Virus record (IMG/VR): IMGVR_UViG_3300027844_002282
Reading direction: 5' to 3' (one strand)
DNA: 64,000 nucleotides
Source of the DNA: a virus
Every line of letters begins with the position of its first letter. Position 1 is the stretch's first letter. The translations under genes were made by a program, and so were the position numbers. Of the stretch, positions 14,668 to 63,885 are shown in pieces. Below the pieces are notes generated by a model, which saw only the letters and a program-made list of their open reading frames with translations, was not told the DNA's origin and did not search any database.

Positions 14668-14669
14668 TA

Positions 14670-15686: not shown

Positions 15687-15717
15687 CTATATCTCCTAAT
15701 GGGTATTTAGGTTTAAT

Positions 15718-15745
15718 ATTAAGAAATACGAAGTTAAAACCCTTT
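15718..15745 (-). promoter_or_regulatory. AGG-N19-TAAT promoter-like motif (variant)
   Basis: Minus strand aaAGG gttttaacttcgtatttct TAAT. Confidence 0.5.
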
Positions 15746-17156: not shown

Positions 17157-17159
17157 AAT

Positions 17160-20172: not shown

Positions 20173-20175
20173 AGA

Positions 20176-22494: not shown

Positions 22495-23361
22495 TTAGGA
22501 GCTTGATGTCACTGAAACCTTAGCACATGCATAGGAGTTAATGATAACAATTCCAATCTCTTCATAGATAACCCATCCCAAACGAAGAACACGAGGTTCA
22601 TCAGCTGGAATTACGGTGATGTCCTGACGAATCGGGAACGCACCTACATACTCGGCTGGAGCAAGGACGAAGACATCGGTCGTCGGCATTCTTGAGCTAA
22701 CATGAATGTCAGCTGTCCAAATATGGCCGAAGAGACCAGTGGTCAAAACTTCCTTGGTCGTGGCTTCGTCGTAAACCGTCTTACCCCAATTTCTCACATC
22801 AGCATAACGGAGCGGATGCATAACGATCTTACCAACGATAAGGTCATGCTGCTCGACTGTTGCGAAAGCCTGGTTAAGAGCGGTGATTGACAATGCGCCA
22901 CCGGTACTTGTTACGGTATGATTACCATCGATAGCCGCACCAATAACGTTGAAGATCAAACGATCCTCTTCTTTCTGGAGGGCTTCCTTGGCCTTGATTT
23001 GTGCTCTATCAACAATAAAGAACCTACGGGCCTTTACTTCACTCAATCTGATAGTAGGATGTGTCGCGATTTCAAAGAGCGGAACGAGGATTTCCTCGCC
23101 TTCTGTGATACCACGTGGTACACCACCACGTCTTGAGATGACCTGAGCGGTCTGACGAACATCCTTTTCGTAACGAGGCAATGCTCCCTGAGGAAGCTCA
23201 TCAATCATAAGTAACTTACGACCAACGGCCTGATATTCAAGTGCTCGTCTAATGGGTTCTACCATTGCTTGTGCCAATGCTACACGACCCTCTGTGGAAT
23301 CGAGTGCTTGGGCTACGAGGGTCTCCCTCTCGACATTAACTGAACGTTTTTCTAAACTCAT
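22495..23361 (-). CDS. Major capsid protein (HK97 fold)
   Basis: ALAQAMVEPIRRALEYQAVGRKLL..DELPQGALPRYEKD...FEIATHP.I.LSEVK.RRF.IVDRAQ; follows decoration gene; strong terminator. Confidence 0.9.
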   Translation of the reverse strand: MSLEKRSVNVERETLVAQALDSTEGRVALAQAMVEPIRRALEYQAVGRKLLMIDELPQGALPRYEKDVRQTAQVISRRGGVPRGITEGEEILVPLFEIATHPTIRLSEVKARRFFIVDRAQIKAKEALQKEEDRLIFNVIGAAIDGNHTVTSTGGALSITALNQAFATVEQHDLIVGKIVMHPLRYADVRNWGKTVYDEATTKEVLTTGLFGHIWTADIHVSSRMPTTDVFVLAPAEYVGAFPIRQDITVIPADEPRVLRLGWVIYEEIGIVIINSYACAKVSVTSSS

Positions 23362-30418: not shown

Positions 30419-33400
30419 TTAGAAGTTGTATGTCTTATCTTCGCTTTCTCTGTCAGCCATATCCATTCGGATGGCTCTATTCTGTTGCTGACTTCCGATA
30501 GTAAACATGTCCGCAAGCTGGGACTCTATTGAAACGTCAGTCTCATCATTCGCTTGGAACGTTGGCTCTTCAATTATCGCCGATGTCAACATTGGAAGTG
30601 ATGTTGCAGCGGTCTTAGTTGTAGAAGCCTTCTTCTGAGGAAGCAAGAGACGATCAACATGTGCCTTCATACGGTCAAGAGGCATTACTGAAAGGTCATT
30701 AACAAAGTCTGAAACTTCAGCTTCCTTGATAATCCCTCTTTCAACAAGCTGTCCAGCGAATCTGGCGGCATGCTCACGTCTTGCAGACGAGATCTTCTCA
30801 AGCTGCTTCTCTCTTTCGGCTTCACGTCCACGCATCGTTGTGTCGGTTCCGCTATCTTCTGATGGGACAACTGGTTCGATAGTTACTGGTGGGCTTTCAT
30901 TTCCCATGGTCGCATCCGACCTTGGTATATCTGGTCCACCCTCTGTCAAAGCCTGCTCATCGTTAATTGTAGCGTTAGGGTTTCTGACTACATTGTCATG
31001 GCCCTCGATACTCTCAACAACTTCAACCTTTTTCTCGGTGCATGGCTTCTCTTGCAAGGCGTTATCGCCTGTCGTGCTGTCTGGATGCACATGCTCCGCG
31101 TTATCGTTCCTTGTCATAGGCTCAATTTCGCCATATGCTACCTTTTCCATTCCTTCTCCTTGTGATGTTGCTTCGGCCTGGTTCTTCAACGCTGAAGAGT
31201 TGGTCTCGCTGTTTTCAATTGGTACGCTGACGCCTTCGGCTGGAGCGGCTTCTTCTTTACCAATAGTCGCGTTTCCACGTGGTACGTCTGGATCTGCTGG
31301 AGCTTCCGTGTCTTCGTCTCCCATCTTACTTCTGGAAGCAGATGGCTCTTCATTTGGATTTTCCGAAATGGAATCGACATTATCGACCTTCTTTTCGGTG
31401 TTCTTCTGCTCTTTGGTCTTTGTAACACCATCGGAACCCTTATCTACAACTGGTGGCGGATTATCAAATTCTCCCGCTTCCTTTTGCAATTCGGATTCTG
31501 TGAACAAGGCAACTTCCTCTTGAAGACCGGCTGTCAACGCTTCAACATCTGCGCTCACTTCGGTTTCAACAAACTCAGGAAGATCAAAGACTGTCGCAAT
31601 AACCTTACTGGCTTCGGCAACTGTCCCGTCTGGTGCGAGGCTCTTGTCATATTCGGCCATCTTACGCAAGATACCCGTATCAATCTGTGAGGACAACGCT
31701 GCGATATAGATATTGTTATCTTCTTCTCCAGCGAACTTCTCTTTTAAGCAATCGCAAAGCTTGCTTGATTCAGCAACGGTGTAACCCCTCTTCTTCTGAT
31801 CGCGGACGCATTTCTCCATCGGATCTTCAGCTGACTGGGCATCTGCCAAGGCTTGAATATGAGCAATCTTTGTAAATCCGAACCTTGAGGCCTGACTTAC
31901 AATCGTTTCGGAAAAGTCCTGCCCCTTATATGGACCAGTAGTTACCAACTCGATCTCTGGATAGGTATTAGCAACCCACCCGGCTAATCTGTCCTTAGGA
32001 AGATCAACGGTCGCAGCCCTCTTCATCATCTTATCAAAGACCATGGTTGCTGCGAACTTCTTCGCTTCCTGTTTGCAAGAACCGCACTTTCTCTTCATTG
32101 GATCAATTGACCAAGCGATTTGCAACTTACTTTCTGTTGGACTATCAACATTAATCATCATTGTCTTCTCAGTCTCGGTCTTGCACTTGGAGCAAGCAAT
32201 CGTGAGTTCGGATGGATGTCCCTGAACCTGAACCTCTCCGCTTCCGCATGCTGGGCAAATATGTCCAACTTCCTTCTGCATATCAGCGATCTTCTTCATG
32301 GAACCTCTATCAATATCAATCATTGCCGCAACTGGCATCTCTGGCGCTGATGGCGCTTCAAGATCAAGTTCTGACTCGTCATCTTCGGCGACCGACTCTG
32401 GATTCAACAATTCTATGTTTACGTGATACAAGTACTTGATTCCGCAAGAGTTACAGTCGAACTGTCCCGGTTGCTGATCCTTGTTTCCGGTCTCGGTATC
32501 GGTTGATCCACAGACTGGGCAAATCGTTCCCGGTTCCATCTGCTCATCGTCACCAGGAAGCTCTTCTTCATCCGTAAACGACTGGAGGCCAGCGCCTTCT
32601 TCTGGAACGGTATCTGGAGTTAATCCAATAGATGGATCTACGCCACCGCCACTTTCATCCGGGAGGGCTCCGCCTGATCCAGCGCCGGGGTCGCCGCCGC
32701 CAAACTGAGCAACCTTCTTCTCACCCTTCGTTGATGTAAAAGCACCAAGTCCGGTTGATAATTCAGGGGTTTCTGGACCGCCTTCGCCGAAATCGCCCAG
32801 TGGAGCAGCGTCTTCTGGCATCGGACCTTCATCGGCCAAGCCATCGGCCAACTCTATTGGCTCTTCAATCGCACCTTCGTTTTCTACAGGGATCTCAACC
32901 GATCCGCCTTCTGTGTCAACTGCGATAATAACATCGCCGGTATCACCATCAACTGTTACATTGACAACGGCGGCGACCTTGACTCCAAGATGGGCGAACG
33001 CGCCATGCGCAAAGCATGAGGCAGCAGCCTTGACAATGTTGTCATTGCCACGACTTGCTTCTGGGACACCAATTTCTTTGAACGAGGTTTCAATAATATG
33101 ACTTGAGGTTTTAACGGCCTTCCTTTCTAGCGCGGCTGTCAATATATCAACGTCTTCCTTGACTGAGGCTTCCTTGTCGTCAGAGCAGGAGCATTCGCAT
33201 CCAGCACTTTCGCAATCGGTGCATTCCTTGCATTCCTTGTCTTTACACTTGAAACAGAAACCGGAAGCTTTCTTGCATGCGCATTCGCATCCAGCGCTTT
33301 CGCATGTTACACATTCCTTACACTCTTCATTTTCGCACTTCTCGCAGCAATCTGAGGCTTCCGTAATCATGGAATCAAGCTCGCTGTTCATGTCGTCTTC

Positions 33401-35683
33401 AAGACTCGCTTCTACAACTTCACCGCTTTCTATAATTTCTTCAACTCGGCCTGAAACGATTGCGTCGGAGTGATCGTTGGCCTTAACCACGGCAAATGCC
33501 TTAAGCAACATATCGGGATTAAGCTTTTGTGTCTTGGAGGCGTTTGCTGCAAAGGCTATAATCATCTGCTTAATTTGTGGGTCTGTTGCGGAAGAAGCAG
33601 TAACACCTTTCTGTGCCCAATAAGCTACCCTTTCGTTGAAATTATCAACTGCTGGAACTTCGCCCGAATAAACGGAGATGTCATTGACAAGTGATGCCTG
33701 GTTATCTAATGAAAGCAACGCGAAAGATCCCGCTGTTTTAATAACCTTGCTTGGGGTTGACTGAGAACTTACAACTGTCTTCGCAATAACGTCAACAGCA
33801 GCCTTGATGTGATCCTGATGACTTGCCCATCGAGTAGACGGAGTGTCAACCTTAGGATGGCTCAAAAGATCTTCAATGATCGTATTCGGCTCATTGTTTG
33901 TTCTTTCAGTTTCAAGCTGTGCTTGGGTTGTCTGTTCTACAGCATCACCCTCGCGAGTTGGTTCTAACTGATTCTGGCCAACGGTATTTGGGGCGTCATC
34001 TGTTCTGACAGACTCAAGTAGCCCCTGTTCAATTTCGTTTGGATTACCCTCATGGAAATCCGCGAGTTGCTTACCAATGACGTCTTCTCTGACATCGCCC
34101 TCTCTTGGGTGATGCTTGACACCGTCGCTAAGTTGCTTCTCTGTTACAGCAAGAGGCGTTTGTTTCGCCTTCGCTTCTATAATGTTTGACATATCTCTAC
34201 CTCCGACTTGTTCGATATTTTTGTCACTTAAAGTTACTTCGCCTGCAAGACTTTCTTTCATTGTATTACTAATTTTTTCTACTTTTTCCTGCCAGTTTGT
34301 CTCTAATGCGCTAGTTATTTTTTCCCTCTCCTTCATATTATTAGCTGGGGTTCGTCTCATATTCGTATTTTCCTCTATTGTTGATGCCCCTTTTGAACGC
34401 GGTGATACGGGCTTTTTAACCCCACCGAGTCCCATGCTTGGAGACGGTCTTGTTTTATCCTTAAATTTACCTGGAGCGGATGGCGCAGCGGCAAGTGGTG
34501 ACCCATCGGCCCCGCTTACCTCTCCGGCTCCACCCAAGGATTGTTGATCTGAAATTGGTCGGTCTCCAGGAAGTCCGCCGACTCCGGCGGCTGGTAACGG
34601 CGGCAAGCCAGCGTCACCCATTCCTTCAGCACCTGGCATTCTAGGATCTGCGGCCTCATCAGGAACGTTTCCTGGGATCTCATCTGGCAATCTGCCAAAT
34701 CCAGCCTGTACAAGAGCGTCTACATATTCTTGAAGGTCTGCCAAAATAGATACTAAATCAGATGAGAATTGCATTTCAATGTTTTCTCTCTGTCCGATTA
34801 GCTTGATCGCAATATCCTCAAGAGTGGACAAGACTTCATTCAGTCTCTCAATATCCTGCTCTGAAGCTTCTTTCTTAAACGTATCGCTTGACGCAAAAAC
34901 CATTAGCTTGTTTGAGAAATTACAAATTGATGAAGCTGCCTTTGTGAAGTCTTCGTTATTATAGATGGCTCCAATCTGACATGATGGGCAGGCCGGGTCT
35001 ACAACTCCACTTAATTCAATAAATCTTATTCCGAAGTTGTCTTCGTAAACCGCCGCTTCCTTATAGTCTCTGGTTTGTCCGGTTTTAACATCGGTAGCTC
35101 TTCCTGTGAATTTTCTACCCTTAAGGTTTCTAATATGTGCGCAATAATCATCTTGGGAGATGGCCTGGTTACTACAAATGGAGCATGTGCTATATTCAAC
35201 GCTGCATCCCATCGATACGCCAGTGACATACTCTTGCTCAATCCCGCGAGCTAACGGGGCATAAGCGTCTCGATCAACGAACGCAATAACATAAATCGCC
35301 TGTTGCTCTTCGCTCCATTCGGCAAAAACAATTTTACCCTTGGCTTTTTCAACGTCGTCGTTTTGATGGTTTGTGAAAAAAGGAACCCCAACAAATGTCT
35401 GTGTGGATTTCTTTAGCTCGTCTGCGCTGAAGAAGTCTCCGTTATTGTTGGGGATGTCTGCCTCGATTGCTCTTGCTTTGAAGAACAAAGCATTTGGTCG
35501 CTTAGCAATCTCTTGTTTTAGTACTGAATCAGCCTCTGAAGAACCATCTATATCCTTTGAGGAAGCGGTTTTAATATTTTCACTTCCAACCTTGCACTCT
35601 CTAACTTCTGAAAAGTCAAAACTTGCTATTTTTCTAATCCCAGATGGCTTGTGGCCACACTCGGAATCGCTTAAATTTTGCAT
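30419..35683 (-). CDS. Prohead protease fused to a very long scaffold-like region with Zn ribbons
   Basis: NNNGDFF..EL, FFTNH (His), VSMGC...CSIC...CAH, FIELSGVVDPA (Ser): HK97/herpes-type head maturation protease; acidic tail with CPVC/CNSC, CPAC/CSKC and a helical C-terminus. Confidence 0.85.
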   Translation of the reverse strand: MQNLSDSECGHKPSGIRKIASFDFSEVRECKVGSENIKTASSKDIDGSSEADSVLKQEIAKRPNALFFKARAIEADIPNNNGDFFSADELKKSTQTFVGVPFFTNHQNDDVEKAKGKIVFAEWSEEQQAIYVIAFVDRDAYAPLARGIEQEYVTGVSMGCSVEYSTCSICSNQAISQDDYCAHIRNLKGRKFTGRATDVKTGQTRDYKEAAVYEDNFGIRFIELSGVVDPACPSCQIGAIYNNEDFTKAASSICNFSNKLMVFASSDTFKKEASEQDIERLNEVLSTLEDIAIKLIGQRENIEMQFSSDLVSILADLQEYVDALVQAGFGRLPDEIPGNVPDEAADPRMPGAEGMGDAGLPPLPAAGVGGLPGDRPISDQQSLGGAGEVSGADGSPLAAAPSAPGKFKDKTRPSPSMGLGGVKKPVSPRSKGASTIEENTNMRRTPANNMKEREKITSALETNWQEKVEKISNTMKESLAGEVTLSDKNIEQVGGRDMSNIIEAKAKQTPLAVTEKQLSDGVKHHPREGDVREDVIGKQLADFHEGNPNEIEQGLLESVRTDDAPNTVGQNQLEPTREGDAVEQTTQAQLETERTNNEPNTIIEDLLSHPKVDTPSTRWASHQDHIKAAVDVIAKTVVSSQSTPSKVIKTAGSFALLSLDNQASLVNDISVYSGEVPAVDNFNERVAYWAQKGVTASSATDPQIKQMIIAFAANASKTQKLNPDMLLKAFAVVKANDHSDAIVSGRVEEIIESGEVVEASLEDDMNSELDSMITEASDCCEKCENEECKECVTCESAGCECACKKASGFCFKCKDKECKECTDCESAGCECSCSDDKEASVKEDVDILTAALERKAVKTSSHIIETSFKEIGVPEASRGNDNIVKAAASCFAHGAFAHLGVKVAAVVNVTVDGDTGDVIIAVDTEGGSVEIPVENEGAIEEPIELADGLADEGPMPEDAAPLGDFGEGGPETPELSTGLGAFTSTKGEKKVAQFGGGDPGAGSGGALPDESGGGVDPSIGLTPDTVPEEGAGLQSFTDEEELPGDDEQMEPGTICPVCGSTDTETGNKDQQPGQFDCNSCGIKYLYHVNIELLNPESVAEDDESELDLEAPSAPEMPVAAMIDIDRGSMKKIADMQKEVGHICPACGSGEVQVQGHPSELTIACSKCKTETEKTMMINVDSPTESKLQIAWSIDPMKRKCGSCKQEAKKFAATMVFDKMMKRAATVDLPKDRLAGWVANTYPEIELVTTGPYKGQDFSETIVSQASRFGFTKIAHIQALADAQSAEDPMEKCVRDQKKRGYTVAESSKLCDCLKEKFAGEEDNNIYIAALSSQIDTGILRKMAEYDKSLAPDGTVAEASKVIATVFDLPEFVETEVSADVEALTAGLQEEVALFTESELQKEAGEFDNPPPVVDKGSDGVTKTKEQKNTEKKVDNVDSISENPNEEPSASRSKMGDEDTEAPADPDVPRGNATIGKEEAAPAEGVSVPIENSETNSSALKNQAEATSQGEGMEKVAYGEIEPMTRNDNAEHVHPDSTTGDNALQEKPCTEKKVEVVESIEGHDNVVRNPNATINDEQALTEGGPDIPRSDATMGNESPPVTIEPVVPSEDSGTDTTMRGREAEREKQLEKISSARREHAARFAGQLVERGIIKEAEVSDFVNDLSVMPLDRMKAHVDRLLLPQKKASTTKTAATSLPMLTSAIIEEPTFQANDETDVSIESQLADMFTIGSQQQNRAIRMDMADRESEDKTYNF

Positions 35684-40490: not shown

Positions 40491-42773
40491 TTACTTTTTG
40501 TCAGGTATACTATTTTTACGCTTTTCCTCTAGCTTTTTCCTTTGTTCGGTGATCCAGCGCTCTCTTTTTCCTATCTCGTTCATGATCCTGGTCATCACAC
40601 CACCGATGTTACTTTCGATTTCTTCTTCTCCAAATCTAATTATTACCCAACCTTTATTATTTAATTTCTGATCTCTCTTCTTATCTCGCTCTATATTCTC
40701 TGGAGAGCCGTGGAATGTAGTTCCATCACACTCTACTCCAAGCTTAATATCTGGGAACGCAACGTCAATCATAACCGGTCTTCCACCAGTATGCACTTCG
40801 TATGAAGGGGATACGTTATATGTTATCTTCCCACTTCTCTGATGGTTCTCAATAGCTTTGATAACCGCCCTCTCAATAGAAGTAAGCATTATTCTTCCCA
40901 TTCTATCTCTCATGAACCCATCACCACCAACCCCGCTGGGGGATTGAACGTTATGCTCTCTCTTTGATTGTTCTTTATCAACCTTTTCTCTATCTCTATC
41001 AAGCTTTTCTCTGGTTTTGTCAGTTAATATCTTTCCGCCGTATTGTCCAGGGTCCGCCTGTGAGGTTACTTTAATCGATTTAGACGACGCTAAGCCCATT
41101 GGGGCGGCGTCGCCCGGGTCTCCCATGCCTCCGCCCATTTCTCCGCCCATTAAGTCACCACCGCCTGGTTCTCCCATGCCTCCGCCAAGGTCTAAGCCAC
41201 CGCCACCGCCTCCCAGGCCGCCACCCATGTCCATTCCACCCATGCCGCCCTCTTCACCAGCAGCCTGTCCCGGTGGTTGTTCAGCCATCGCTTCAATTCT
41301 TTCCCATCTCATCTGCTCGAATTCAGTGTCTGGATCGATATCGAACTCTGTCAATACTCTTGTGGCACTAATAAGTCCCTTGTCGAACAACTGTAAAATC
41401 ATTTGTCTTTCTTGCTGTCTGTCTCTAAGATTTAAGCTTCCCCATTTTATCTTCGGATAAATCCATTCGTCTTCGCCCCATTCATTGGTCTTTCTAAAGC
41501 CCTTCATCTTAGAAATCGGCAAGTAGATCTCTTCTTCGATCCATCTTTTTAACTCAAGTCTCCACGACTCAAGTCTCTTAATCATTATTTCCGCACCCAT
41601 AGCTGCGCTTGAGTATGTCGGACCTTCACCAGTAATCAACTGCTTGTTAAGACCGAAACCGTCCATAATTTCCTGATTGATGAACTCGTACTCTCCCTGA
41701 ATAGGAAGAACTTGACCATTTGCTCCAACCCAATCGAGTTCGAATGCATGATGAGTAACGATAACCATGTTAGGATCGTTAGATGCCGCCTGTAGCTGCC
41801 CTTGTACGGCAGTAATGTCCGCTTCGCTCGCTGGACGTTCCTCAGTACCGACTTTGACGACCTTGATAGGAAGGATCAGTCTTTCTGCCACGATCCATTG
41901 GGCGGTCATGATCTTCGTCTTATAACTCAAGATCGGGAAAAGTCTTCTGGTCATCGAGATCCCGTATCTTCTATAGCCAGACTCGCCAAATTTCAAATGA
42001 CTTACATTTCTGCTATCTAATGGAATTGGTCTTCCTTGAGCAATAAAATCTTTCACTTCTTTTGACAGCTTATCTGTACCTGGGCCACTCTTAATAACAA
42101 GATCTCGCAATTCATCATCTGGAACGTATGTGATAACGTCTTCTGGTGAAATCGAGTTTGAGAAAACCTCAACAAAGTCGGGATTTAGGATTAGGAGCCT
42201 CTTGAACGTTCCACCTTCATGCTCGCAGATTTCATCTCCAATCCTACCGCTTCCACCGCAATGGTCGCATTCTATTTCTTTGAACGGAAAACAATCTCCC
42301 ATCAAATGGACTTCATGACTAATGAGTCGAGCCCACTTGTCAATGTTTAGTTTCTTGTTAACCTCTTCATCAAAGAAGTGTTTAATGTATCTATCTGAAC
42401 ATTCTGTCTCGAAAGTCGTAATAGGGAACTTGCTGTAAAAATCAATAGCGGTCGCGACACGGGGCTCGTTCTCGTACCAATAGCGACACCACATATATAT
42501 TTCTCGGCGGCGTGATGGGATCTGCCAGTTGATTGGCGTATATACAGGAGAAAAGAACTGTGGCTGACCATAAGAGATTCCAGCTGTCGTCTGCTTTGTT
42601 TTCCTATTGTAACTACCAAAGTTAGAATGGGAAACCGTTGCGGCAGAATAATCCCTTGGTGTCTGTGTTGCTTGTGGCGCTTGCCCGAACGTTGTATTCG
42701 GGCTCGCCTCTAATCGTTCACCCCTCTTAAGACTGTTGAAGTGCTTTTCGAGATCGGCTACTACCATTTCCAT
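40491..42773 (-). CDS. Portal protein fused to a C-terminal Vsr/DUF559-like endonuclease domain
   Basis: Portal-like core (WCRYWYENEPRVATAIDFYS...VSHLK...YGIS...PKIKW..LNLRD), Gly/Met linker, then IDVAFPDIKLGVECDG..FHG....RDKKRDQKL...GWVIIRF. Confidence 0.85.
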   Translation of the reverse strand: MEMVVADLEKHFNSLKRGERLEASPNTTFGQAPQATQTPRDYSAATVSHSNFGSYNRKTKQTTAGISYGQPQFFSPVYTPINWQIPSRRREIYMWCRYWYENEPRVATAIDFYSKFPITTFETECSDRYIKHFFDEEVNKKLNIDKWARLISHEVHLMGDCFPFKEIECDHCGGSGRIGDEICEHEGGTFKRLLILNPDFVEVFSNSISPEDVITYVPDDELRDLVIKSGPGTDKLSKEVKDFIAQGRPIPLDSRNVSHLKFGESGYRRYGISMTRRLFPILSYKTKIMTAQWIVAERLILPIKVVKVGTEERPASEADITAVQGQLQAASNDPNMVIVTHHAFELDWVGANGQVLPIQGEYEFINQEIMDGFGLNKQLITGEGPTYSSAAMGAEIMIKRLESWRLELKRWIEEEIYLPISKMKGFRKTNEWGEDEWIYPKIKWGSLNLRDRQQERQMILQLFDKGLISATRVLTEFDIDPDTEFEQMRWERIEAMAEQPPGQAAGEEGGMGGMDMGGGLGGGGGGLDLGGGMGEPGGGDLMGGEMGGGMGDPGDAAPMGLASSKSIKVTSQADPGQYGGKILTDKTREKLDRDREKVDKEQSKREHNVQSPSGVGGDGFMRDRMGRIMLTSIERAVIKAIENHQRSGKITYNVSPSYEVHTGGRPVMIDVAFPDIKLGVECDGTTFHGSPENIERDKKRDQKLNNKGWVIIRFGEEEIESNIGGVMTRIMNEIGKRERWITEQRKKLEEKRKNSIPDKK

Positions 42774-56592: not shown

Positions 56593-58215
56593 TTATATAC
56601 TGCTACTACTTGAACAGCTACTTGAACAGCTACTACTGCTGCTTGAGAAACTCATTGATGATGACGAGAGCGAATAGCTCGACGAAGAACTAATACTTTC
56701 TGATGAACAACTACTTGACACCCAACTTGAACAGCTGCTTGACGAACTGCTTGAATTTGTCCAACAAAGGGAACTAACTTGACCGCCAGACTGATTCAAT
56801 GTAAAGTCGCACCCTGTGATATCAATAATCCATGCTGTGCCAGCTAATGGTGCTTGAACGCAAACTTCAACAGGACAAGTCGCCTCAACAATATAGGTGT
56901 TGTAATTCTGATAAGTAGATATTGATCCCGTATCCAATATACTTCCGGTATTATCTGTAACGGTCAATCTGTCTGGAATCGTATACGTCTTAAATTTGAT
57001 AGTCATTGTTCCGCACGATTCTCCAGGTGAACATTGACCAATGGCCTGGACGGAGCTTATAGACTCGCTCGATTTGCTAAACGAACTACTGCTTGATTCC
57101 CAACTTGAACATGAACTCGAACAACTTGAGCTACTTGAGCTACTTGACGAGCTACAAGAGTTACTCGATGAGCTACTTGATATGCAAACGGTACAGGCGG
57201 CATGTGTTGATGGAGGTGTCGGAACAGTGTCATTGCCCTGCCTTTTTATGTAAAAGCAATAGGCGTCGGGTGGGGGACAACACGATAAAAAATTCCACGT
57301 GGTAGTTACTGGAGCACCTGTAAGTTTTGCACTCTTTATCCTAACAATGGATGTAGCATCAATATCTTCAATAGCATTATAGGTAACCTCGAATCCTGCT
57401 CTGGCAAAAGACTCTGTTGGAAGCGGTGGCGTTCCTTCGCCAGAATATTTCTTTCTAAATGTGACAGAGAAACTGTCAAAATAAACGCCTGTGAAAAAAT
57501 TGTACTTAGTCACATCTTTATTCAACATTGTTAGTGGGTCTCTTACCCATGAAGCTGGAGCGGTTCCAGAATACAGCCCGGTATTATTGAATTCTGTCAA
57601 TGTAAGAACAGATCCGCCAGACTCTGGAGCTTCGAACTGGGCTTTTGCCTCCCAATAAAATTCTCCTACACCACTTAGTGATGAGCTTTCCCAACTTGAA
57701 CAGCTTGAAGAGCAACTACATAATGAGCTTTCCCAGCTGGAACAGCTTGAGGAACAGCTTGAGGAACAACTACTACTTGAGGAACTACATGAACAACTAC
57801 AACTTGATGAGCTACAACTTGAGGAAAGACTTGATGAGCTAAAGCTACCAGATCTTGATGATGAAGAACAAGAACAAGAACAGCTTGAACTACTATTCGA
57901 CGAGCTACTGGAAGAACAGCTGCTGGAAGAACTTGAACTGCTTATTTGATCACCAAGAATAGCGGGGAAAATATTCTCCTTATATCTTGATCCGGTTGCC
58001 ATAACTACCGGGCCATTGATCATCACGTTTTTCAACTCTCCCTTTTCTGGATTATTGAAAGCGTCTACCTCATCACAAGAAGAATAGAATGACACATCAT
58101 CAATGGGGTTTTTATTATTCCATTGAAAATCGTCTGGGTAATTTCCCTCCTGATTCACCGAAGAAGCATTGCTTCCCGGTAGCGCTAAGTCTGCGTACCA
58201 ATTTGAAAGTGCCAT
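56593..58215 (-). CDS. Extremely Ser/Cys-rich modular protein
   Basis: Three long S/C tracts separating small beta domains (e.g. YTIPDRL...DTG...GTAW). Confidence 0.75.
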   Translation of the reverse strand: MALSNWYADLALPGSNASSVNQEGNYPDDFQWNNKNPIDDVSFYSSCDEVDAFNNPEKGELKNVMINGPVVMATGSRYKENIFPAILGDQISSSSSSSSCSSSSSSNSSSSCSCSCSSSSRSGSFSSSSLSSSCSSSSCSCSCSSSSSSCSSSCSSSCSSWESSLCSCSSSCSSWESSSLSGVGEFYWEAKAQFEAPESGGSVLTLTEFNNTGLYSGTAPASWVRDPLTMLNKDVTKYNFFTGVYFDSFSVTFRKKYSGEGTPPLPTESFARAGFEVTYNAIEDIDATSIVRIKSAKLTGAPVTTTWNFLSCCPPPDAYCFYIKRQGNDTVPTPPSTHAACTVCISSSSSSNSCSSSSSSSSSSCSSSCSSWESSSSSFSKSSESISSVQAIGQCSPGESCGTMTIKFKTYTIPDRLTVTDNTGSILDTGSISTYQNYNTYIVEATCPVEVCVQAPLAGTAWIIDITGCDFTLNQSGGQVSSLCWTNSSSSSSSCSSWVSSSCSSESISSSSSYSLSSSSMSFSSSSSSCSSSCSSSSSI

Positions 58216-58441: not shown

Positions 58442-59368
58442 TTATGAAATTAGATCTGACCAATCATCAAGAAAGGTCTTCTTCTTTGGTGGTTTTTCCT
58501 GCACCGGAACATTTTGTACCGGAACATCCTGTACTTGAGTATCCGGTGGCGGGGTCTCTTGAACGGGCGGTTCTCTTCTTTTTGTATCAATTACATCTAT
58601 TCGATTAGGGTCAAACATTTCAATTTGATCACGCGCTTGTTCAAGCGTCTCTCTCGCCCGCTGCTCATGATCTTTTCCCTCTTCAATAGAGGTTAAATAA
58701 TTTCTAATGTCATGAGGGTTAACTGGGCCGTCCTTTGTTATAAATTGATACCCAACGATATCATCCAACTTAAATGTTCTTGGTTGACCGCCTCTAGTTA
58801 AATCAACAACAGTTATATTGTCGCCGTCCCTCTCAAATATTTTACCGCTTGGAAGCTTGGCGGTTCCACTTGTTGCTAATTGATGATCTAACATGCCTCT
58901 GTGGCCACCGGTGTACATATAGGATATCTCCATGTTCAACCCGTTCTTTATTGCGAAATCAAGGGCGTCAACAAAGTTCTGTGTTATTCTAACGTTAAAC
59001 TCTTCGGCTCCGGCTGTTTTTATACTGTCTCCAAAACTATGACCAACCACAACATTGTTCTTAGCAAACCACCCACGATTAACTTCAAGTGCGTACCTAC
59101 ATTTTGTCGATGACTTTACGGGCCTTAGAGATAATGGTATCAAGGGTTTAATATCTAACACTTTGAAATCGCTACTCAAAAAGGCTATGTCCAAGGGAAT
59201 ATAGGTGTTAGACATCCAGAAACTAAGGTGCCTATCTGACGCAAAGCAAAATAGCATCCCGCGATTTTCTCCGAGATGCTTCTTGTACATCAGCCCCTGC
59301 TCTCTTGTGTAGGGGTCGTTTGCGACATCTACCATTAAATTAATTGTCTTTTTTTCACTCGCAGCCAC
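58442..59368 (-). CDS. DUF192-family protein fused to a WYL-like domain
   Basis: QGLM...GMLF.F...FWM.NT.IPLDIAF...YALEV..GW (DUF192); then ISY...D.TR...RTFKLDDI (WYL-like). Confidence 0.75.
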   Translation of the reverse strand: MAASEKKTINLMVDVANDPYTREQGLMYKKHLGENRGMLFCFASDRHLSFWMSNTYIPLDIAFLSSDFKVLDIKPLIPLSLRPVKSSTKCRYALEVNRGWFAKNNVVVGHSFGDSIKTAGAEEFNVRITQNFVDALDFAIKNGLNMEISYMYTGGHRGMLDHQLATSGTAKLPSGKIFERDGDNITVVDLTRGGQPRTFKLDDIVGYQFITKDGPVNPHDIRNYLTSIEEGKDHEQRARETLEQARDQIEMFDPNRIDVIDTKRREPPVQETPPPDTQVQDVPVQNVPVQEKPPKKKTFLDDWSDLIS

Positions 59369-59392: not shown

Positions 59393-59590
59393 TTATCTTC
59401 TATTTGTTCTTGTCGGCGTATTAGACTGCCATGCACAACCATATGAAGAAACTATACGTATTAATTTAGAAGCGCTCGCCTCATCAACCTCAACATAATA
59501 ATTTCGACCACTTGATTTATACTTAAAACCACTCAGCCTACCTTCTTTTATCTCACGATCAAATTTTTCAGTCGCAAAGAAAAAGATCAT
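59393..59590 (-). CDS. Hypothetical protein
   Basis: 65 aa, coupled to the upstream stop. Confidence 0.55.
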   Translation of the reverse strand: MIFFFATEKFDREIKEGRLSGFKYKSSGRNYYVEVDEASASKLIRIVSSYGCAWQSNTPTRTNRR

Positions 59591-60051
59591 TACTTTTTAC
59601 CCACAGAGAGTCTTGGTCCATTTCCAAATTTCTTCTTTTTATCAGCGAGAATTTCCTGGAGCCCCTTGGTTTCAGAACTCTTATCAAAACTATTCTCTTC
59701 TGAAAGAACCAGAGTCTTAATAACCTCTCTCCCTCTGCTTGTGTACGTAAAAGTCTCTATATCTCCACTTATAAGACCAGAGGCTTTTAGCCTTAAAACG
59801 TCGTTCTGACTTACCGTCTCTGGAATAGGTATCTTTTCATCACTGGCGCTACCGCTACTGTCTTTCCAAAGCTTGAAAAGTATTCCCGCCTCGAAATTGC
59901 TGACCTTTATGATATCATTGGCTTTCGACTGTTTTTCTGTAACAAATGGTAACAGGCTTACATCTATACCGTAATCAACCTGAGGGGTCATTGGTTTGTT
60001 TTGATCTAACATCAAATAATCTGTATTCATTGGTACTATTGGGACTGGCAT
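59590..60051 (-). CDS. Hypothetical protein (possible winged helix)
   Basis: LKASGLI....YTSRGREVI pattern; GGAGG RBS. Confidence 0.6.
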   Translation of the reverse strand: MPVPIVPMNTDYLMLDQNKPMTPQVDYGIDVSLLPFVTEKQSKANDIIKVSNFEAGILFKLWKDSSGSASDEKIPIPETVSQNDVLRLKASGLISGDIETFTYTSRGREVIKTLVLSEENSFDKSSETKGLQEILADKKKKFGNGPRLSVGKK

Positions 60052-60060
60052 TTTGACCTC

Positions 60061-62496
60061 CTATACTGTTTCAAAAAATTCCGGCTGCTCTTTAACTACT
60101 TTTGCATGTATTTCTTTCAATTTTTCAAGGCCGTATTCCTTTAGCATGTATTCTCCGTCAGGGCCGTAGCCTATGATCTTCTCATATTCATATGCCAATC
60201 TCTTTTCAGAAACCTTCGCGCCGTCAAACAATAATTCTTTATTTCTATGAATCGACTCATCAAGCTCTGGGTCTATAGAATATCCTCTAAGGTTTAATAT
60301 GATCGCCCTCGTAACCATGAGCGGATTAATCGGGATAACAACGTCTGGGTTGAGGATCGGTCTAACAATCTTGGCCTCAATATCATCCATGGCTTTTCCC
60401 GTTATATCGTAGATATTATTGTCAATAAAACTATAAAGTAGACTATTGACGGTAAAGTCTCTGGCATACACGTCTAAGTGAATTGGGGTCGTTGAGATAT
60501 TCTCTTCTCTCATAAGCGGTCTTACACCCTCTGTGAAAATACGTTTTCCACGAAAGTCCATCGATACGCCTTCATACTCATAACTCATCGTTCCAGTTCT
60601 TTGGCTAAATCCGATATCGACAATACCAAGATCTGCCGCAAGAAGACCGCCAAGTTTTTGAACGTTCTCGACTACCGGAGATGTGAAATCAAGATCGTTA
60701 ACCTCAAGGAAATTCTTTGTCGTTGCCAATGTTCTTGGGAATCCACCAACTACGAAACAGTCTTCTATCCCATATGTCTGTGATAATATCTTACACTTAC
60801 TAAGTATCTTATTGATTGTTTCCTTAAGTCTTCCCTGAAGGTTAACAAATGAGTTTACACGATCAATGTTAGATCCAGAGTTTACATTGTCCTCAATTTC
60901 TTTAATATCTTCTAAGTCTTCATCCCCAGTAATCCAAACTACAACTTTATCCTTGAGATTGTCATTCTCAAATATTGCATACGGAAAATCTCCTAATGCG
61001 TCAACAACATGAGGTAAAGCGTCTTCATGAACAATCAGCCTGGCTACATTTATCTTTTTTGACAAAACCATCTTCTTATAATACCCAACCCTTCTCAATA
61101 TTTGAACAATATAATTCTTAGATTCGTTATCTGTCACATTATAAAGAGAGTTGCCAACTGCCCCAGCAGTACCAAAATCGGATCGGCCAGACCAATAAGT
61201 ATCTCTATCGTTCCACTTCTCTGGTCTATTCCTATGTTCTGGTGAAGCAAGGTCAATCTGGATATCATTTTTCCAGTAAGATCTACCAAATCTATCTTTG
61301 GCTATTTTACCCCTACCGTACCTTTCATCATATCTTCTCATCCAATATCTTCTGTCTGAAGATTCTCCGTCGTAATATCCATGGGTGTCAGAAATATCAT
61401 CAGCCTCAAATGGCTCTCTCCAACCCGCATTAAATCCATTTAGATATCCAAAGACGCCACCAATATGCGGGCCACCAACGTTACTTCTCCATGACGCGAA
61501 CTTAATAAGTTTATTTGTCGATGCCGCTTTTTGAATAGGAATAATCAAAGCGTGAGGAAGCTTGTCCATTAACATTTTCTCTAACGTTACAGACTCTGTC
61601 TCAGCAACCCCCTTCTCTTTCCTTTCTTGAGTAAGGTTTTCCTCACAAGTTTTATCTCCCGATTCGTCACCAGTGTGAAGATTGTTTTCAAGAAGGGTTT
61701 CCACTGAGTCATACTTTGTCCCTTCGGTAGCGAATTCTTGAAAGTTAACCTCTTGATTGGATCTCAACACTGTTTCAATTAGACTCCACTGGAACGGGGC
61801 GATCTGAGCCTTCCTATACCAACTATTTTCATTTGAAGCGTGAGTCATTTCCCCTGTCGTTTCAAAAGGCAGGTTAAACCTATTCATCCCCCAAGAAAGA
61901 AGGGAATTTTGCAACTCTTGACATGGGCCTTCGTCCCCACCTTTGGCATGTAAGGCTTCGTGGGCAATAATGGAAGCTAACTGAACTTTTCGAAGGTTGT
62001 TCTTATCATCCTCGGTAATCGTATCTGGATCGGAGTCCAAAATCATTTGGTCAGTAATATCCATGATTCTTGCAATATCGATGCCAATAACGCTTCCACC
62101 TTCAGATTTTTTCTTTTCAAAAAGTCTTCTCATCTCTTCTGTCACTTCTTCTGGATCTTTATCTGGAGAATATGCATATAGAAGATCACTTTCTGAAGGG
62201 CTCTCTGGAATATTAGTTACATAACCAGATCTTTCAAGCTCTTTCTTAACCCTGACCCAATCAACTGTTTCGTTCAATGATGGGTTGAAAACCCCGAATG
62301 CATCTACATCAGTAGAATTGTAAATGTATGCTACATTTTTCAACAGATCTCCCCCAGCAAATTCGTTAACTAACGAAACAGCCTCGGAAGCGCCGGGGAA
62401 TCTCCCGGAAATTTCATCAGAATTAACATTTCCTGAGCCTACGTTCTGCTCAATTGTGTCAACCTTCTGTTCTATCTCTTGCAATTCTGGATTCAT
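60061..62496 (-). CDS. HExxH metalloprotease-like domain fused to a class II CCA-adding/poly(A) polymerase-type nucleotidyltransferase
   Basis: IIAHEALH (HExxH at 61948-61962); C-terminal FVVGGFPR...DLDF...ARDFTVNSL...D.TG....DI....VR...VSEKRL. Confidence 0.8.
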   Translation of the reverse strand: MNPELQEIEQKVDTIEQNVGSGNVNSDEISGRFPGASEAVSLVNEFAGGDLLKNVAYIYNSTDVDAFGVFNPSLNETVDWVRVKKELERSGYVTNIPESPSESDLLYAYSPDKDPEEVTEEMRRLFEKKKSEGGSVIGIDIARIMDITDQMILDSDPDTITEDDKNNLRKVQLASIIAHEALHAKGGDEGPCQELQNSLLSWGMNRFNLPFETTGEMTHASNENSWYRKAQIAPFQWSLIETVLRSNQEVNFQEFATEGTKYDSVETLLENNLHTGDESGDKTCEENLTQERKEKGVAETESVTLEKMLMDKLPHALIIPIQKAASTNKLIKFASWRSNVGGPHIGGVFGYLNGFNAGWREPFEADDISDTHGYYDGESSDRRYWMRRYDERYGRGKIAKDRFGRSYWKNDIQIDLASPEHRNRPEKWNDRDTYWSGRSDFGTAGAVGNSLYNVTDNESKNYIVQILRRVGYYKKMVLSKKINVARLIVHEDALPHVVDALGDFPYAIFENDNLKDKVVVWITGDEDLEDIKEIEDNVNSGSNIDRVNSFVNLQGRLKETINKILSKCKILSQTYGIEDCFVVGGFPRTLATTKNFLEVNDLDFTSPVVENVQKLGGLLAADLGIVDIGFSQRTGTMSYEYEGVSMDFRGKRIFTEGVRPLMREENISTTPIHLDVYARDFTVNSLLYSFIDNNIYDITGKAMDDIEAKIVRPILNPDVVIPINPLMVTRAIILNLRGYSIDPELDESIHRNKELLFDGAKVSEKRLAYEYEKIIGYGPDGEYMLKEYGLEKLKEIHAKVVKEQPEFFETV

Positions 62497-62498
62497 AA

Positions 62499-62879
62499 TT
62501 ATGCTGTCTCTGGACCCTCTTGGACGACTTCTTGCTGTCTCGCAATATCCGCTCTCTGTTCCTCACGGACTGTGTCAACAACTCCGGCACTTGGGTCGTC
62601 TGGTGGCTCATCATCTCCAAACCCGGCTCCGTTTCTCATCTCACCCTGAGATTGCTGTAAACTCTTTGAAGCATCAGATATCGCAAACAAATCATTAAAA
62701 AGATTTATCTCATTTGTTCCCCTGTGCTCACCCTCTTTGGCTTCAATGGCAATATCTACGCCTGTGCCATCATCATTTATCTTGTAACAAACAGTCCATT
62801 CGGCTCTCTGAACGTTTCCCGCTCCAGTTTGCGCCTTAACTAACTGCCCACTACTGTCTACCTTATATATTTTCATCAC
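62499..62879 (-). CDS. Hypothetical protein
   Basis: 126 aa, GGAGG RBS, LVKAQ motif. Confidence 0.65.
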   Translation of the reverse strand: MMKIYKVDSSGQLVKAQTGAGNVQRAEWTVCYKINDDGTGVDIAIEAKEGEHRGTNEINLFNDLFAISDASKSLQQSQGEMRNGAGFGDDEPPDDPSAGVVDTVREEQRADIARQQEVVQEGPETA

Positions 62880-63885
62880 TTACCTCCTGTTGTAAAAACT
62901 TTGAAAACCTCTTAAAACAAACATCTATAGGGATACCTGCATTTAACCCGTAATTTCCTACTGATTCCACTATTACGGCGGCTATCCCAAAAACCCTTCC
63001 ATCTGACGAATCAACAACCGCTCCGCCACTTGATCCTGGATACACAGATAAATCCATAAAGAAATAATTGCTTCCGCTATTTATCTCTCTGTCTTTAGAC
63101 GAGATTATTCCTCGTGACACATTATTGTCATAACCATATGGGCTACCAACGCAAAGTATAGATTCTCCGACGCCGACCGAATCGATTCTTTTAGGCTCTA
63201 CCTCTGTGTGTTTTACAGAGTCGCAATAAAGAACAGCGATATCCAATTCATAGTCAACGTCTAATATTGTTGCCGAATACTGTCTGTCTCCATCTATAAC
63301 ATACGCCGATACACTTTCAAAGCGTTCCTCGTTTCTACTGATTACGTGTGCGCATGTGATGAGGATGTTTGGTTTAACAAAAAAACAAGATCCCACCTCT
63401 TTGACCCCGTGGGTGTGAGACTCTGTCTCTATCTTAAAGCATGAAGATAGAAGATCTGCGACGATTGGAACCATTTCCGTTTCTTTATTGGCGGTTTTCA
63501 TCATAGTATCATCGCTTGATGCCATGGGGGATATTAGACGCCATTTTTTGTTCTTCTTACCAAGATCCGCAACTATCTCATGAATAGGTCTGTTTTCATA
63601 AACGACCTGCTTACCGCCTTCTAAATACACAACAAATCGTCTTACTTTATCGCCAAGTAATCCTGATCTATTCCAAAGGTCTTCCCCATGAAACGGGTCG
63701 TTGATATGCCAAGATATATCTACCGTGTCAGGACTTGATATTCCAGTATGGTCCGAAAAACCCTTATCTAAATCTTTTCTTCTCTTAAGATCTCTATCAA
63801 TATTTAGAGCGCGGCCTTTGTCGGTTATAGGACTAAGCTTATCGTCCAAGAACGGCATCGTCGTTCTATATGATTTAATTTGCAA
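62863..63885 (-). CDS. Trypsin-like (HtrA/S1C-type) serine protease without PDZ, with N-terminal extension
   Basis: GSCFFV...ITCAHVI (His), DIAVL (Asp), PGSSGG (Ser), VGSPYG...VSRGIIS. Confidence 0.9.
   Translation of the reverse strand: MQIKSYRTTMPFLDDKLSPITDKGRALNIDRDLKRRKDLDKGFSDHTGISSPDTVDISWHINDPFHGEDLWNRSGLLGDKVRRFVVYLEGGKQVVYENRPIHEIVADLGKKNKKWRLISPMASSDDTMMKTANKETEMVPIVADLLSSCFKIETESHTHGVKEVGSCFFVKPNILITCAHVISRNEERFESVSAYVIDGDRQYSATILDVDYELDIAVLYCDSVKHTEVEPKRIDSVGVGESILCVGSPYGYDNNVSRGIISSKDREINSGSNYFFMDLSVYPGSSGGAVVDSSDGRVFGIAAVIVESVGNYGLNAGIPIDVCFKRFSKFLQQEVSDENI

What the first reader, a model, noticed from the sequence alone, without database searches (positions are those of the whole stretch)
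60061..62496. Zincin-nucleotidyltransferase fusion with an altered nucleotide-selection motif
Seen: an HExxH domain and a class II CCA/PAP-type domain in one ORF. Catalytic DxD (DLD) and RD (ARDFTVN) are intact, but where class II CCA enzymes have the EDxxR amino-acid template this protein reads INPLM(VTRA). Established: EDxxR selects CTP/ATP. Inference: a nucleotidyltransferase with non-canonical specificity, possibly tRNA 3'-end repair against host anti-phage tRNases or RNA tailing, delivered from the virion.
Basis: partly seen in the sequence, partly recalled or inferred. Interest (0 to 1): 0.7.

Follow-up and report, generated by a model that had tools for sequence, protein, structure and literature searches.

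The report
Phage zincin–tag–nucleotidyltransferase precursor protein
An uncultured marine giant phage makes an 811-residue protein that joins a small zinc-hydrolase domain, a built-in copy of the huge-phage "address tag", and a stripped-down relative of the tRNA CCA-adding enzyme that has lost both its base-reading residues and its tRNA-holding domains, so it is not a CCA repair enzyme but a new virus-only kind of nucleotidyltransferase whose substrate is still unknown.

Summary
The ORF 60061-62496(-) has an invariant HExxH domain and a class II (CCA/PAP-type) head+neck domain. GGxxR, DLD, a third carboxylate, xRD, motif C and motif E are intact. Where the family has EDxxR it reads INPLM, and no EDxxR lies elsewhere.

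New here:
- The template loss is family-wide, in a virus-only clade. The Asn is kept equally in catalytically dead relatives, so it looks structural: the template is lost, not retuned.
- The tRNA-binding body and tail domains are absent. An R3H/Smr-like domain precedes the head instead.
- Across 74 cluster representatives HExxH is intact in all, but the three carboxylates in only 41.
- The gene sits in a conserved cassette (trypsin-like protease, small ORF, this gene, 153-aa ORF, DUF192 protein) beside the terminase, also in a complete 296-kb phage.
- Complete relatives carry a separate canonical CCA/HD enzyme with DDPLR.
- Residues 224-231 (NSWYRKAQ), directly after the zincin domain, copy the MNWYKxAQ N-terminal tag. 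This scan has already reported that tag on other huge-phage DNA, and I re-verified it.

Best reading: a tagged precursor whose C-terminal part is a template-less RNA 3'-end transferase. CCA repair is unlikely, and virion delivery is plausible but unproven.

The parts
60061..62496 (-). whole ORF, 811 aa (P0001)
   Evidence: 22 full-length homologues
61852..62496 (-). aa 1-215: compact alpha/beta zincin-like metallohydrolase domain
   Evidence: AF2 pLDDT about 90. VIA-align: YbeY Z 7.7, zincin-like Acel_2062 Z 7.5, Wss1 Z 6.9, deuterolysin, archaemetzincin. No Pfam or PDB sequence match.
61930..61962 (-). aa 179-189: HEALHAKGGDE, i.e. HExxHxxGxxE, the putative metal site
   Evidence: H179, E180 and H183 invariant; G186 and E189 nearly invariant. 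HExxH intact in 74 of 74 two-domain representatives.
61804..61827 (-). aa 224-231: NSWYRKAQ, an internal copy of the huge-phage MNWYKxAQ address tag
   Evidence: Only W-Y-[KR]-x-A-Q in any ORF of the window and 19 related loci, always at this position. Present 46-71 aa after HExxH in 51 of 91 representatives. Tag verified at 48 of 49 ORF starts in IMG/VR.
61129..61803 (-). aa 232-456: low-confidence linker that nevertheless holds invariant residues (S338, N339, G341, G342, W385, R388, Y389, G404, W435)
   Evidence: pLDDT 30-65; invariant columns
60847..61128 (-). aa 457-550: R3H/Smr-like alpha/beta domain, a candidate single-strand nucleic-acid binder
   Evidence: pLDDT above 90. VIA-align: 2guk Z 9.2, KhpB/Jag R3H Z 8.2 (rmsd 1.8), PARN R3H Z 7.7, Smr Z 6.2. 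R486 invariant.
60082..60840 (-). aa 553-805: class II nucleotidyltransferase head + neck; the protein ends here, with no body or tail
   Evidence: Foldseek to CCA/PAP structures at E 3e-7 over about 245 columns
60685..60747 (-). aa 584-604: motif A, GGFPR...NDLDF (D601, D603)
   Evidence: invariant
60556..60558 (-). D647, the third catalytic carboxylate (DFRG)
   Evidence: aligned to IDF/LEF of solved enzymes; invariant
60445..60474 (-). aa 675-684: motif B, DVYARDFTVN (xRD; the first Arg of RRD is missing)
60304..60330 (-). aa 723-731: motif D position, INPLMVTRA in place of EDPLRxLRA
62863..63885 (-). cassette neighbour: trypsin-like serine peptidase (Trypsin_2)
   Evidence: syntenic in all loci long enough to show it
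62499..62879 (-). cassette neighbour: 126-aa ORF, no family match
59590..60051 (-). cassette neighbour: 153-aa ORF, no family match
58442..59368 (-). cassette neighbour: DUF192 protein with a C-terminal extension

Best explanation
The gene encodes a modular precursor that belongs to the head/packaging gene block of a phage-G-like marine giant phage.

Module 1 (aa 1-215) is a minimal zincin-type metallohydrolase (HExxHxxGxxE). It is the part of the protein conserved throughout the family.

Directly after it lies NSWYRKAQ, the same peptide that starts dozens of unrelated proteins in related huge phages. A roughly 230-residue flexible linker follows.

Module 2 (aa 457-805) is an R3H/Smr-like domain plus the head and neck of a class II nucleotidyltransferase.

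Shown:
- The transferase has every residue needed for metal-dependent nucleotidyl transfer.
- It has none of the Glu/Asp/Arg template that reads CTP/ATP.
- It has no body or tail to hold a tRNA.

Inferred:
- The polypeptide is split at or next to the tag, by its own zincin domain or by another phage protease. This frees a tag-led R3H-transferase, as seen as a separate gene in one relative (P0059).
- That fragment adds nucleotides to single-stranded RNA 3' ends with relaxed or unconventional base choice, so it is a tailing enzyme and not a CCA adder.
- Like other tag-bearing proteins it is probably loaded into the head.
For: Domain map and confidence. Class II membership and the motif D alignment. 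Family-wide xNPL[hydrophobic]. Published mutagenesis: E. coli PAP R215A makes random poly(N) tails, and the Arg sets specificity (PMC2532741). [quoted passage not shown] R3H/Smr-like fold before the head. Internal tag at a fixed place, and tags at module boundaries in longer relatives (P0088, P0081 and P0034 have a tag exactly where the zincin domain starts; P0047 starts with MNWYKKAQ and has a second internal tag; P0059 is tag + linker + R3H + transferase without the zincin). Tag verified as an ORF-start motif on unrelated proteins. Cassette conserved next to TerL and portal-proximal genes. A separate canonical CCA/HD enzyme in complete relatives. Identical pieces of the gene occur in contigs of three marine metatranscriptome runs, which is weak evidence for expression. 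Zincin peptidases as likely processors of multidomain phage proteins: PMC5512222.
Against: No biochemical datum exists for any member. In 33 of 74 two-domain representatives the carboxylate triad is broken (at least about 7 state changes between intact and broken on the tree), so transfer is not the function the family as a whole keeps. Three of five complete tag-bearing huge phages have no detectable zincin homologue, so the zincin cannot be the general tag protease. The tag region and linker are modelled with low confidence, so no cis-docking can be read from the model. Fold matches for the zincin-like and R3H-like domains are middling (Z 7-9). Packaging is inferred only from the tag and gene position. 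RNA-library contigs may derive from DNA.
Confidence: 0.4

Rival explanations
1. The conserved job is proteolysis or morphogenesis. The zincin domain, working with the neighbouring trypsin-like protease, acts in head assembly or cargo maturation. The transferase-like domain is mainly a binding or structural module, and in this phage merely has not yet lost its catalytic residues.
For: HExxH intact in 74 of 74 but carboxylates in 41 of 74. The complete 296-kb phage G005 keeps the whole cassette although its copy reads EELEF / C647 / K679. The cassette always sits beside terminase and portal-proximal genes. Asn724 and Pro725 are kept in dead copies.
Against: In the window's own clade (26 representatives, down to 34% identity) every catalytic residue, motif C and motif E are invariant. 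That is hard to explain without selection for catalysis.
Confidence: 0.3
2. One reading: a tRNA 3'-end repair (CCA-type) enzyme with changed nucleotide choice, injected to counter host tRNases.
For: Class II CCA/PAP homology. CCA enzymes with the template Arg mutated still make CCA through a tRNA-dependent backup (PMC2532741). The phage has many tRNA genes (earlier notes).
Against: No body or tail domains (PMC3925840). E, D and R of the template and the first Arg of RRD are all lost. A separate canonical CCA/HD enzyme with an intact template is present in complete relatives and is reported for this genome (not checked by me). Many family members are catalytically dead.
Confidence: 0.1
3. The HExxH domain is a YbeY-like metallo-endoribonuclease, not a peptidase. 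The protein would then be an RNA cut-and-tail machine.
For: Best structural matches of aa 21-216 include YbeY from three species (Z 7.4-7.7), and the ESM Atlas structure search gives a YbeY cluster first. The other two domains are RNA-related.
Against: YbeY has HxxxHxxxxxH without the catalytic Glu (my knowledge of the family). Here HExxH with an invariant Glu is the peptidase signature. Feature search points to the zincin peptidases M85/M91 (scores below 0.9). Z values do not separate YbeY from zincin peptidases.
Confidence: 0.1
4. The transferase acts on something other than RNA. Candidates are phage DNA ends (the first Arg of RRD is missing, and I recall motif B as reading the ribose 2'-OH) or a protein or small molecule.
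For: Motif B is xRD in the whole clade. R3H/Smr-like domains bind ssDNA as well as ssRNA. The gene lies next to the packaging genes.
Against: No class II enzyme is known to me with such a substrate, and there is no direct evidence.
Confidence: 0.07

Closest known systems
Class II tRNA nucleotidyltransferases and bacterial poly(A) polymerase I (Pfam PolyA_pol PF01743; e.g. PDB 1miv, 6qy6, 3aqm, 4wby, 9ns4)
   Same: Homologous head and neck. GGxxR, DxD and the third carboxylate, RD of motif B, motif C and motif E are present. Fold match E 3e-7; profile E 1e-31.
   Different: EDxxR template replaced by xNPL[I/V/M/T]. First Arg of RRD lost. No body or tail. Sits at the C-terminus of a zincin fusion. 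Found only in viral and metagenomic contigs. Often catalytically dead in relatives.
Canonical phage CCA/HD enzymes (PHROG 2244; Ruegeria phage V10 'poly(A) polymerase'; huge-phage CCA-HD genes)
   Same: Same superfamily, phage-encoded, weak PHROG match.
   Different: They keep EDxxR/DDxxR, RRD, body/tail and an HD domain, and they co-exist with the zincin fusion in the same genomes.
Polyvalent proteins of phages and conjugative elements (Iyer, Burroughs, Anand, de Souza, Aravind 2017, PMC5512222)
   Same: A zincin-like metallopeptidase joined to an unrelated enzymatic domain in one phage polypeptide. Self-processing and delivery with the DNA were proposed for that class.
   Different: Only two enzymatic modules. 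The zincin domain has no sequence match to known families. The partner is a class II CCA/PAP-type domain, which a term search of that paper ('CCA', 'nucleotidyltransferase') did not find among its polyvalent-protein domains. Delivery is untested.
MNWYKxAQ N-terminal tag of phage-G-like huge phages (earlier notes of this scan); by analogy the T4 capsid-targeting sequence of internal proteins
   Same: The same six-residue core, W-Y-K/R-x-A-Q preceded by N/S/G.
   Different: Here it is internal, at the boundary between two modules, not at residue 1. Its function (sorting signal or cleavage site) is unknown.
Minimal zincins / YbeY fold (PDB 7y7o, 1xm5, 3e11, 5xbn, 4qhf)
   Same: About 100-127 residues superpose, with the HExxH helix in place.
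   Different: Z only 7-8; no sequence similarity; the third metal ligand is uncertain.

Membership tests
Class II Pol-beta nucleotidyltransferases (PolyA_pol head, PF01743) | Head-domain profile match above the curated cut-off | tested here: met
   37.6 bits against 23; profile against PDB at E 1e-31
Class II Pol-beta nucleotidyltransferases (PolyA_pol head, PF01743) | Motif A GGxxR...DxD plus a third carboxylate | tested here: met
   G584, G585, R588, D601, D603 and D647 invariant
Class II Pol-beta nucleotidyltransferases (PolyA_pol head, PF01743) | Motif B RRD | tested here: not met
   A678-R679-D680. The first Arg is S/A/N/G in 73 of 81 catalytically intact representatives. R-D is kept.
Class II Pol-beta nucleotidyltransferases (PolyA_pol head, PF01743) | Head + neck fold | tested here: met
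   Foldseek to 6q52, 3aqm, 1miv and others at E 3e-7 to 1e-5, 220-260 columns
CCA-adding enzyme / A-adding / CC-adding / PAP I (functional classes of class II) | Motif D amino-acid template EDxxR | tested here: not met
   I723-N724-P-L-M727; none elsewhere
CCA-adding enzyme / A-adding / CC-adding / PAP I (functional classes of class II) | Body and tail (or PAP leg) domains that bind the RNA substrate | tested here: not met
   The protein ends about 80 residues after motif D, and the model shows only head and neck
CCA-adding enzyme / A-adding / CC-adding / PAP I (functional classes of class II) | CCA or poly(A) synthesis in vitro | not testable with these tools
   needs an enzyme assay
Zincin-like metallopeptidases | HExxH on a helix | tested here: met
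   H179, E180 and H183 invariant, in helix 162-184
Zincin-like metallopeptidases | Third metal ligand on the following element | tested here: inconclusive
   E189 (HExxHxxGxxE) is nearly invariant, but its spacing varies by one residue and the segment is deleted in P0009/P0010
Zincin-like metallopeptidases | Zincin core fold (beta-sheet plus active-site helix) | tested here: inconclusive
   Z 6.9-7.7 to zincin-like proteins and YbeY; Foldseek found no hit; no Pfam hit
YbeY endoribonuclease | HxxxHxxxxxH three-histidine motif | tested here: not met
   The sequence reads HEALHAKGGDE, with no third His at that spacing
R3H domain | R3H fold and the R-x-x-x-H motif | tested here: inconclusive
   Z 8.2 (rmsd 1.8, 62 residues) to KhpB R3H. 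R486-x3-H490 is present here; the Arg is invariant but the His is not conserved.
Polyvalent proteins (PMC5512222) | Zincin peptidase plus unrelated effector domain(s) in one phage polypeptide | tested here: met
Polyvalent proteins (PMC5512222) | Packaged and delivered with the DNA | not testable with these tools
   no cultured relative and no virion proteome
MNWYKxAQ-tagged huge-phage proteins | The tag peptide | tested here: met
   NSWYRKAQ at aa 224-231
MNWYKxAQ-tagged huge-phage proteins | Tag at the very N-terminus | tested here: not met
   Internal here. It is N-terminal in some relatives (P0047, P0059, and MKIFKISQ-like starts).

The most novel reading that the evidence does not exclude
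The NWYKxAQ peptide is a module boundary signal. On this reading huge phages build their head cargo from 'tag + domain' units, and this protein is a self-processing two-unit precursor. Its zincin module cuts at its own downstream tag and releases a tag-led, template-free RNA-tailing enzyme that is packaged and injected. That would make it a new functional class of class II nucleotidyltransferase that chooses nucleotides without the EDxxR template and binds RNA through an R3H-like domain instead of body and tail.
Probability: 0.2. Interest if true: 0.8.

Novelty: new variant of a known kind. Interest (0 to 1): 0.6.

Why it matters
Every class II CCA/PAP-type enzyme whose nucleotide choice I found described explains it by the EDxxR template. 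Here a large, virus-only clade keeps the chemistry but has dropped the template and the tRNA-binding half. An assay would show what such an enzyme adds, and to what.

The protein also gives a handle on the unexplained MNWYKxAQ tag of huge phages. An internal, conserved copy at a domain boundary next to a protease domain yields a direct test: does cleavage occur there? That would decide whether the tag is a sorting signal, a cleavage site, or both.

The frequent catalytic death of the transferase inside an otherwise conserved morphogenesis cassette warns against annotating these genes as tRNA nucleotidyltransferases.

Tried and rejected
I therefore did not check myself the nine tagged genes and the canonical CCA gene reported for this genome.
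- blastn and tblastn against 50,697 phage records found no homologue of the N-terminal two thirds, only weak C-terminal hits.
- The core family is absent from IMG/VR by its two best peptide patterns and from GTDB species genomes.
- Alignment A3 was too variable for a locus scan.
- The zincin and linker part has no Pfam hit, no PDB sequence hit, and no Foldseek hit in PDB or BFVD.
I found only 0-3 scattered matches.
- Zincin as the universal tag reader is rejected, because three complete tag-bearing phages lack it.
- One internal tag hit in L043 is two genes in one frame, not a family member.
- No RNA-library contig covered 56.0-57.9 kb. This is not interpretable.
- A literature search for the tag string was uninformative.
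- Cho et al. 2007 (PNAS) is not held, so its results are quoted from memory only.
- An ESM Atlas search of the 153-aa neighbour gave nothing usable.
Full report
**1. What is there**

The finding's coordinates are exactly one ORF, 60061-62496 on the minus strand, 811 aa. It lies in a 64-kb stretch in which every long ORF is on the minus strand. The stretch includes a portal gene (40491-42773), a major head protein (22495-23361) and three giant proteins. The head protein is 55% identical to gp27 of Bacillus phage G.

The same DNA recurs in at least a dozen marine or seawater metagenome runs. Identical pieces occur in contigs of three metatranscriptome runs. This is weak evidence for expression, because DNA carry-over cannot be excluded.

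**2. The observation**

- Pfam places a PolyA_pol head domain at aa 580-712 (37.6 bits against a cut-off of 23).
- PHROGs gives weak matches to 'tRNA nucleotidyltransferase'.
- phmmer against solved structures aligns aa 657-790 with E. coli PAP I and with eukaryotic CCA enzymes. It puts INPLMVTRA on EDPVRMLRA / DPLRVLRA.
- A profile of the domain plus stand-alone relatives scores E 1e-31 to 1e-18 against class II enzymes and repeats that alignment.
- In 22 full-length homologues (34-51% identity, all metagenomic) these residues are invariant: H179, E180, H183, G584, G585, R588, D601, D603, D647, R679, D680, P725, R730, R766 and E770. N724 is nearly invariant.
- The three template positions read x-N-...-[I/V/M/T/L] in all of them.
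- No [ED]DxxR exists elsewhere in the domain in any of 25 core members.

**3. Anatomy**

AlphaFold2 on a 47-row alignment and on the first 556 residues gives four parts.

- *aa 1-215.* A confident alpha/beta domain whose helix 162-184 carries HExxH. Foldseek finds nothing for it. An exhaustive structural scan gives YbeY (Z 7.4-7.7), a 'predicted zincin-like metalloprotease' (Z 7.5), Wss1, deuterolysin, archaemetzincin and selecase. The ESM Atlas points the same way. This is a zincin-like fold, but at scores that do not prove it. The extended motif is HExxHxxGxxE.
- *aa 220-455.* Modelled with low confidence, yet it holds invariant residues (S338, N339, G341, G342, W385, R388, Y389, G404, W435).
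- *aa 457-550.* A confident small alpha/beta domain. Its best matches are an unknown-function protein (2guk, Z 9.2), the R3H domains of KhpB/Jag (Z 8.2, rmsd 1.8) and PARN, and Smr. I call it R3H/Smr-like and treat a single-strand nucleic-acid binding role as tentative.
- *aa 553-805.* The head and neck of class II enzymes (Foldseek E 3e-7, about 245 columns).

The chain then ends. [quoted passage not shown]

**4. The wider family**

A profile search of 1.84 billion cluster representatives finds 111 proteins at E <= 1e-30. Several forms appear:

- about 800-aa proteins like this one;
- about 1100-aa forms with an extra N-terminal module;
- forms lacking the zincin domain;
- about 250-aa stand-alone head+neck proteins.

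Aligned to the domain model, the motif D position is N in 62 of 81 catalytically intact and 42 of 52 catalytically broken domains. The 'Arg' position is hydrophobic in most. The first Arg of RRD is S/A/N/G. Only the most distant roughly 255-aa proteins keep xDPxR.

Canonical phage enzymes keep the template. Ruegeria phage V10 has EDYLR and the 735-kb phage LR756501 has DDPLR.

- The Asn is conserved regardless of whether the active site is alive, so it is more likely a helix cap than a base reader. The template is lost, not retuned.
- Among 74 representatives with both domains, HExxH is intact in all 74 but the three carboxylates in only 41. A parsimony count gives about seven state changes between intact and broken on the tree, against about 42 for shuffled labels.

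The family as a whole thus keeps the zincin site, not the transferase site. In the window's own clade, however, every catalytic residue is invariant, which argues that this copy is active.

**5. What template loss predicts**

In E. coli PAP I, replacing the template Arg gives random A/C/U tails, so the Arg sets specificity. In CCA enzymes the same change is buffered by the bound tRNA (PMC2532741). An enzyme with no Arg, no Asp, no Glu and no tRNA-holding domains therefore has no known way to make CCA. If active, its most likely behaviour is relaxed or otherwise-determined nucleotide addition to a single-stranded 3' end.

From memory (Cho, Verlinde and Weiner 2007, not held here), motif B also reads the ribose 2'-OH, so use of dNTPs cannot be excluded.

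**6. Genomic context**

In 19 JGI loci, 3 IMG/VR loci and a complete 296-kb phage, wherever the locus is long enough to show it, the gene lies in the same order: trypsin-like serine protease, small ORF, this gene, a 150-aa ORF, a DUF192 protein.

- In L008 the large terminase is just upstream.
- In the 296-kb phage the cassette is followed by homologues of the three window genes that precede the portal.
- The copy in that phage has a degenerate transferase site (EELEF, C647, K679), yet the cassette is intact.

This is a core piece of the packaging/head block, not a stray metabolic gene.

**7. A separate canonical enzyme**

All five complete huge phages that I searched carry one strong PolyA_pol gene (88-103 bits) with GGWVRD, RRD, DDPLR/EDPLR and an HD motif. 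The two that have the zincin fusion have it in addition. Earlier notes say the window's genome also has a CCA/HD enzyme; I could not read that region. The fusion is therefore not the phage's CCA enzyme.

**8. The tag**

Earlier notes of this scan describe an N-terminal peptide M-N-W-Y-K-x-A-Q on many unrelated proteins of phage-G-like huge phages, including nine in this genome.

I verified the tag independently. The degenerate DNA pattern occurs 49 times, in 39 IMG/VR loci. Of these, 48 occurrences sit at the very start of ORFs whose downstream sequences are unrelated.

The window protein contains N-S-W-Y-R-K-A-Q at aa 224-231, immediately after the zincin domain.

- It is the only such motif in any ORF of the window and the 19 loci, and it is always at that position.
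- It persists in relatives of 27% identity (TWYKKAQ, NWYKTAQ, NWYKYAQ).
- It lies 46-71 residues after HExxH in 51 of 91 representatives.

Relatives show tags at other module boundaries.

- Many start with MKIFKISQ-like or MNWYKKAQ peptides.
- P0088, P0081 and P0034 have a tag exactly where the zincin module begins.
- P0059 is a tag followed by linker, R3H-like domain and transferase, without the zincin.

The protein thus looks like two 'tag + domain' units in one chain. A conserved internal tag beside a protease-like domain suggests processing there.

The zincin cannot be the general tag reader, because three complete tag-bearing phages lack it. The function of the tag is itself unproven.

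**9. Verdict**

The fusion and the missing template are real and define a new, virus-only variant of class II nucleotidyltransferases.

- Best-supported mechanism (confidence about 0.4): a tagged, probably processed, probably head-associated precursor whose C-terminal part is a template-less RNA 3'-end transferase.
- Main rival (about 0.3): the conserved role is proteolytic or morphogenetic, and the transferase fold is mostly a binding module.
- CCA or tRNA repair: unlikely (about 0.1).
- Not shown: packaging, cleavage, activity and substrate.

Noticed in passing
window 56593-58215 (-), joint 56647 to 57875: The Ser-rich 540-aa gene has a length variant. One DNA run (X10) and one RNA-library run (X13) hold contigs that skip 1227 bases, with 9 other letters at the joint. 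Other repeat-type joints occur in the same gene.
   Followed up: no
window 61129-61803 (-), aa 232-456 of the ORF: A linker predicted as disordered holds invariant residues (SNxGG at 338-342, YW..RY at 384-389, G404, W435). This suggests a segment that folds on a partner. No explanation yet.
   Followed up: partly
window 22495-23361 (-): The major head protein is 55% identical to gp27 of Bacillus phage G (497 kb), although no other gene tested here has a cultured-phage relative.
   Followed up: partly
window 40491-42773 (-): The portal protein (760 aa) carries a C-terminal stretch (aa 650-750) that matches an HNH endonuclease PHROG (E 9e-6).
   Followed up: no
window 30419-35683 (-) and 24070-30294 (-): The 1754-aa protein starts with a head-maturation-protease-like domain (aa 38-232). 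The 2074-aa protein has an AAA/clamp-loader-like ATPase at aa 1269-1420.
   Followed up: no
P0148 (2325 aa, metagenomic relative): A giant protein ends in a live head+neck domain of the same clade (motif D NSPIIMLRA). It also carries a 2H phosphoesterase / Acb1-like domain at aa 1548-1663 and an HExxH at aa 76. This looks like a polyvalent-type protein with RNA-end chemistry.
   Followed up: no
P0043, P0055, P0057, P0083, P0103 and others: Many family members begin with M-K-I-[FYI]-K-[IL]-[SA]-Q. This looks like a variant of the MNWYKxAQ tag (same spacing of aromatic/aliphatic, K and A/S-Q).
   Followed up: partly
window 13567-21657 (-): Three consecutive glycosyltransferase genes and a NUDIX-like gene lie between the head protein gene and the low-coordinate end of the window.
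   Followed up: no
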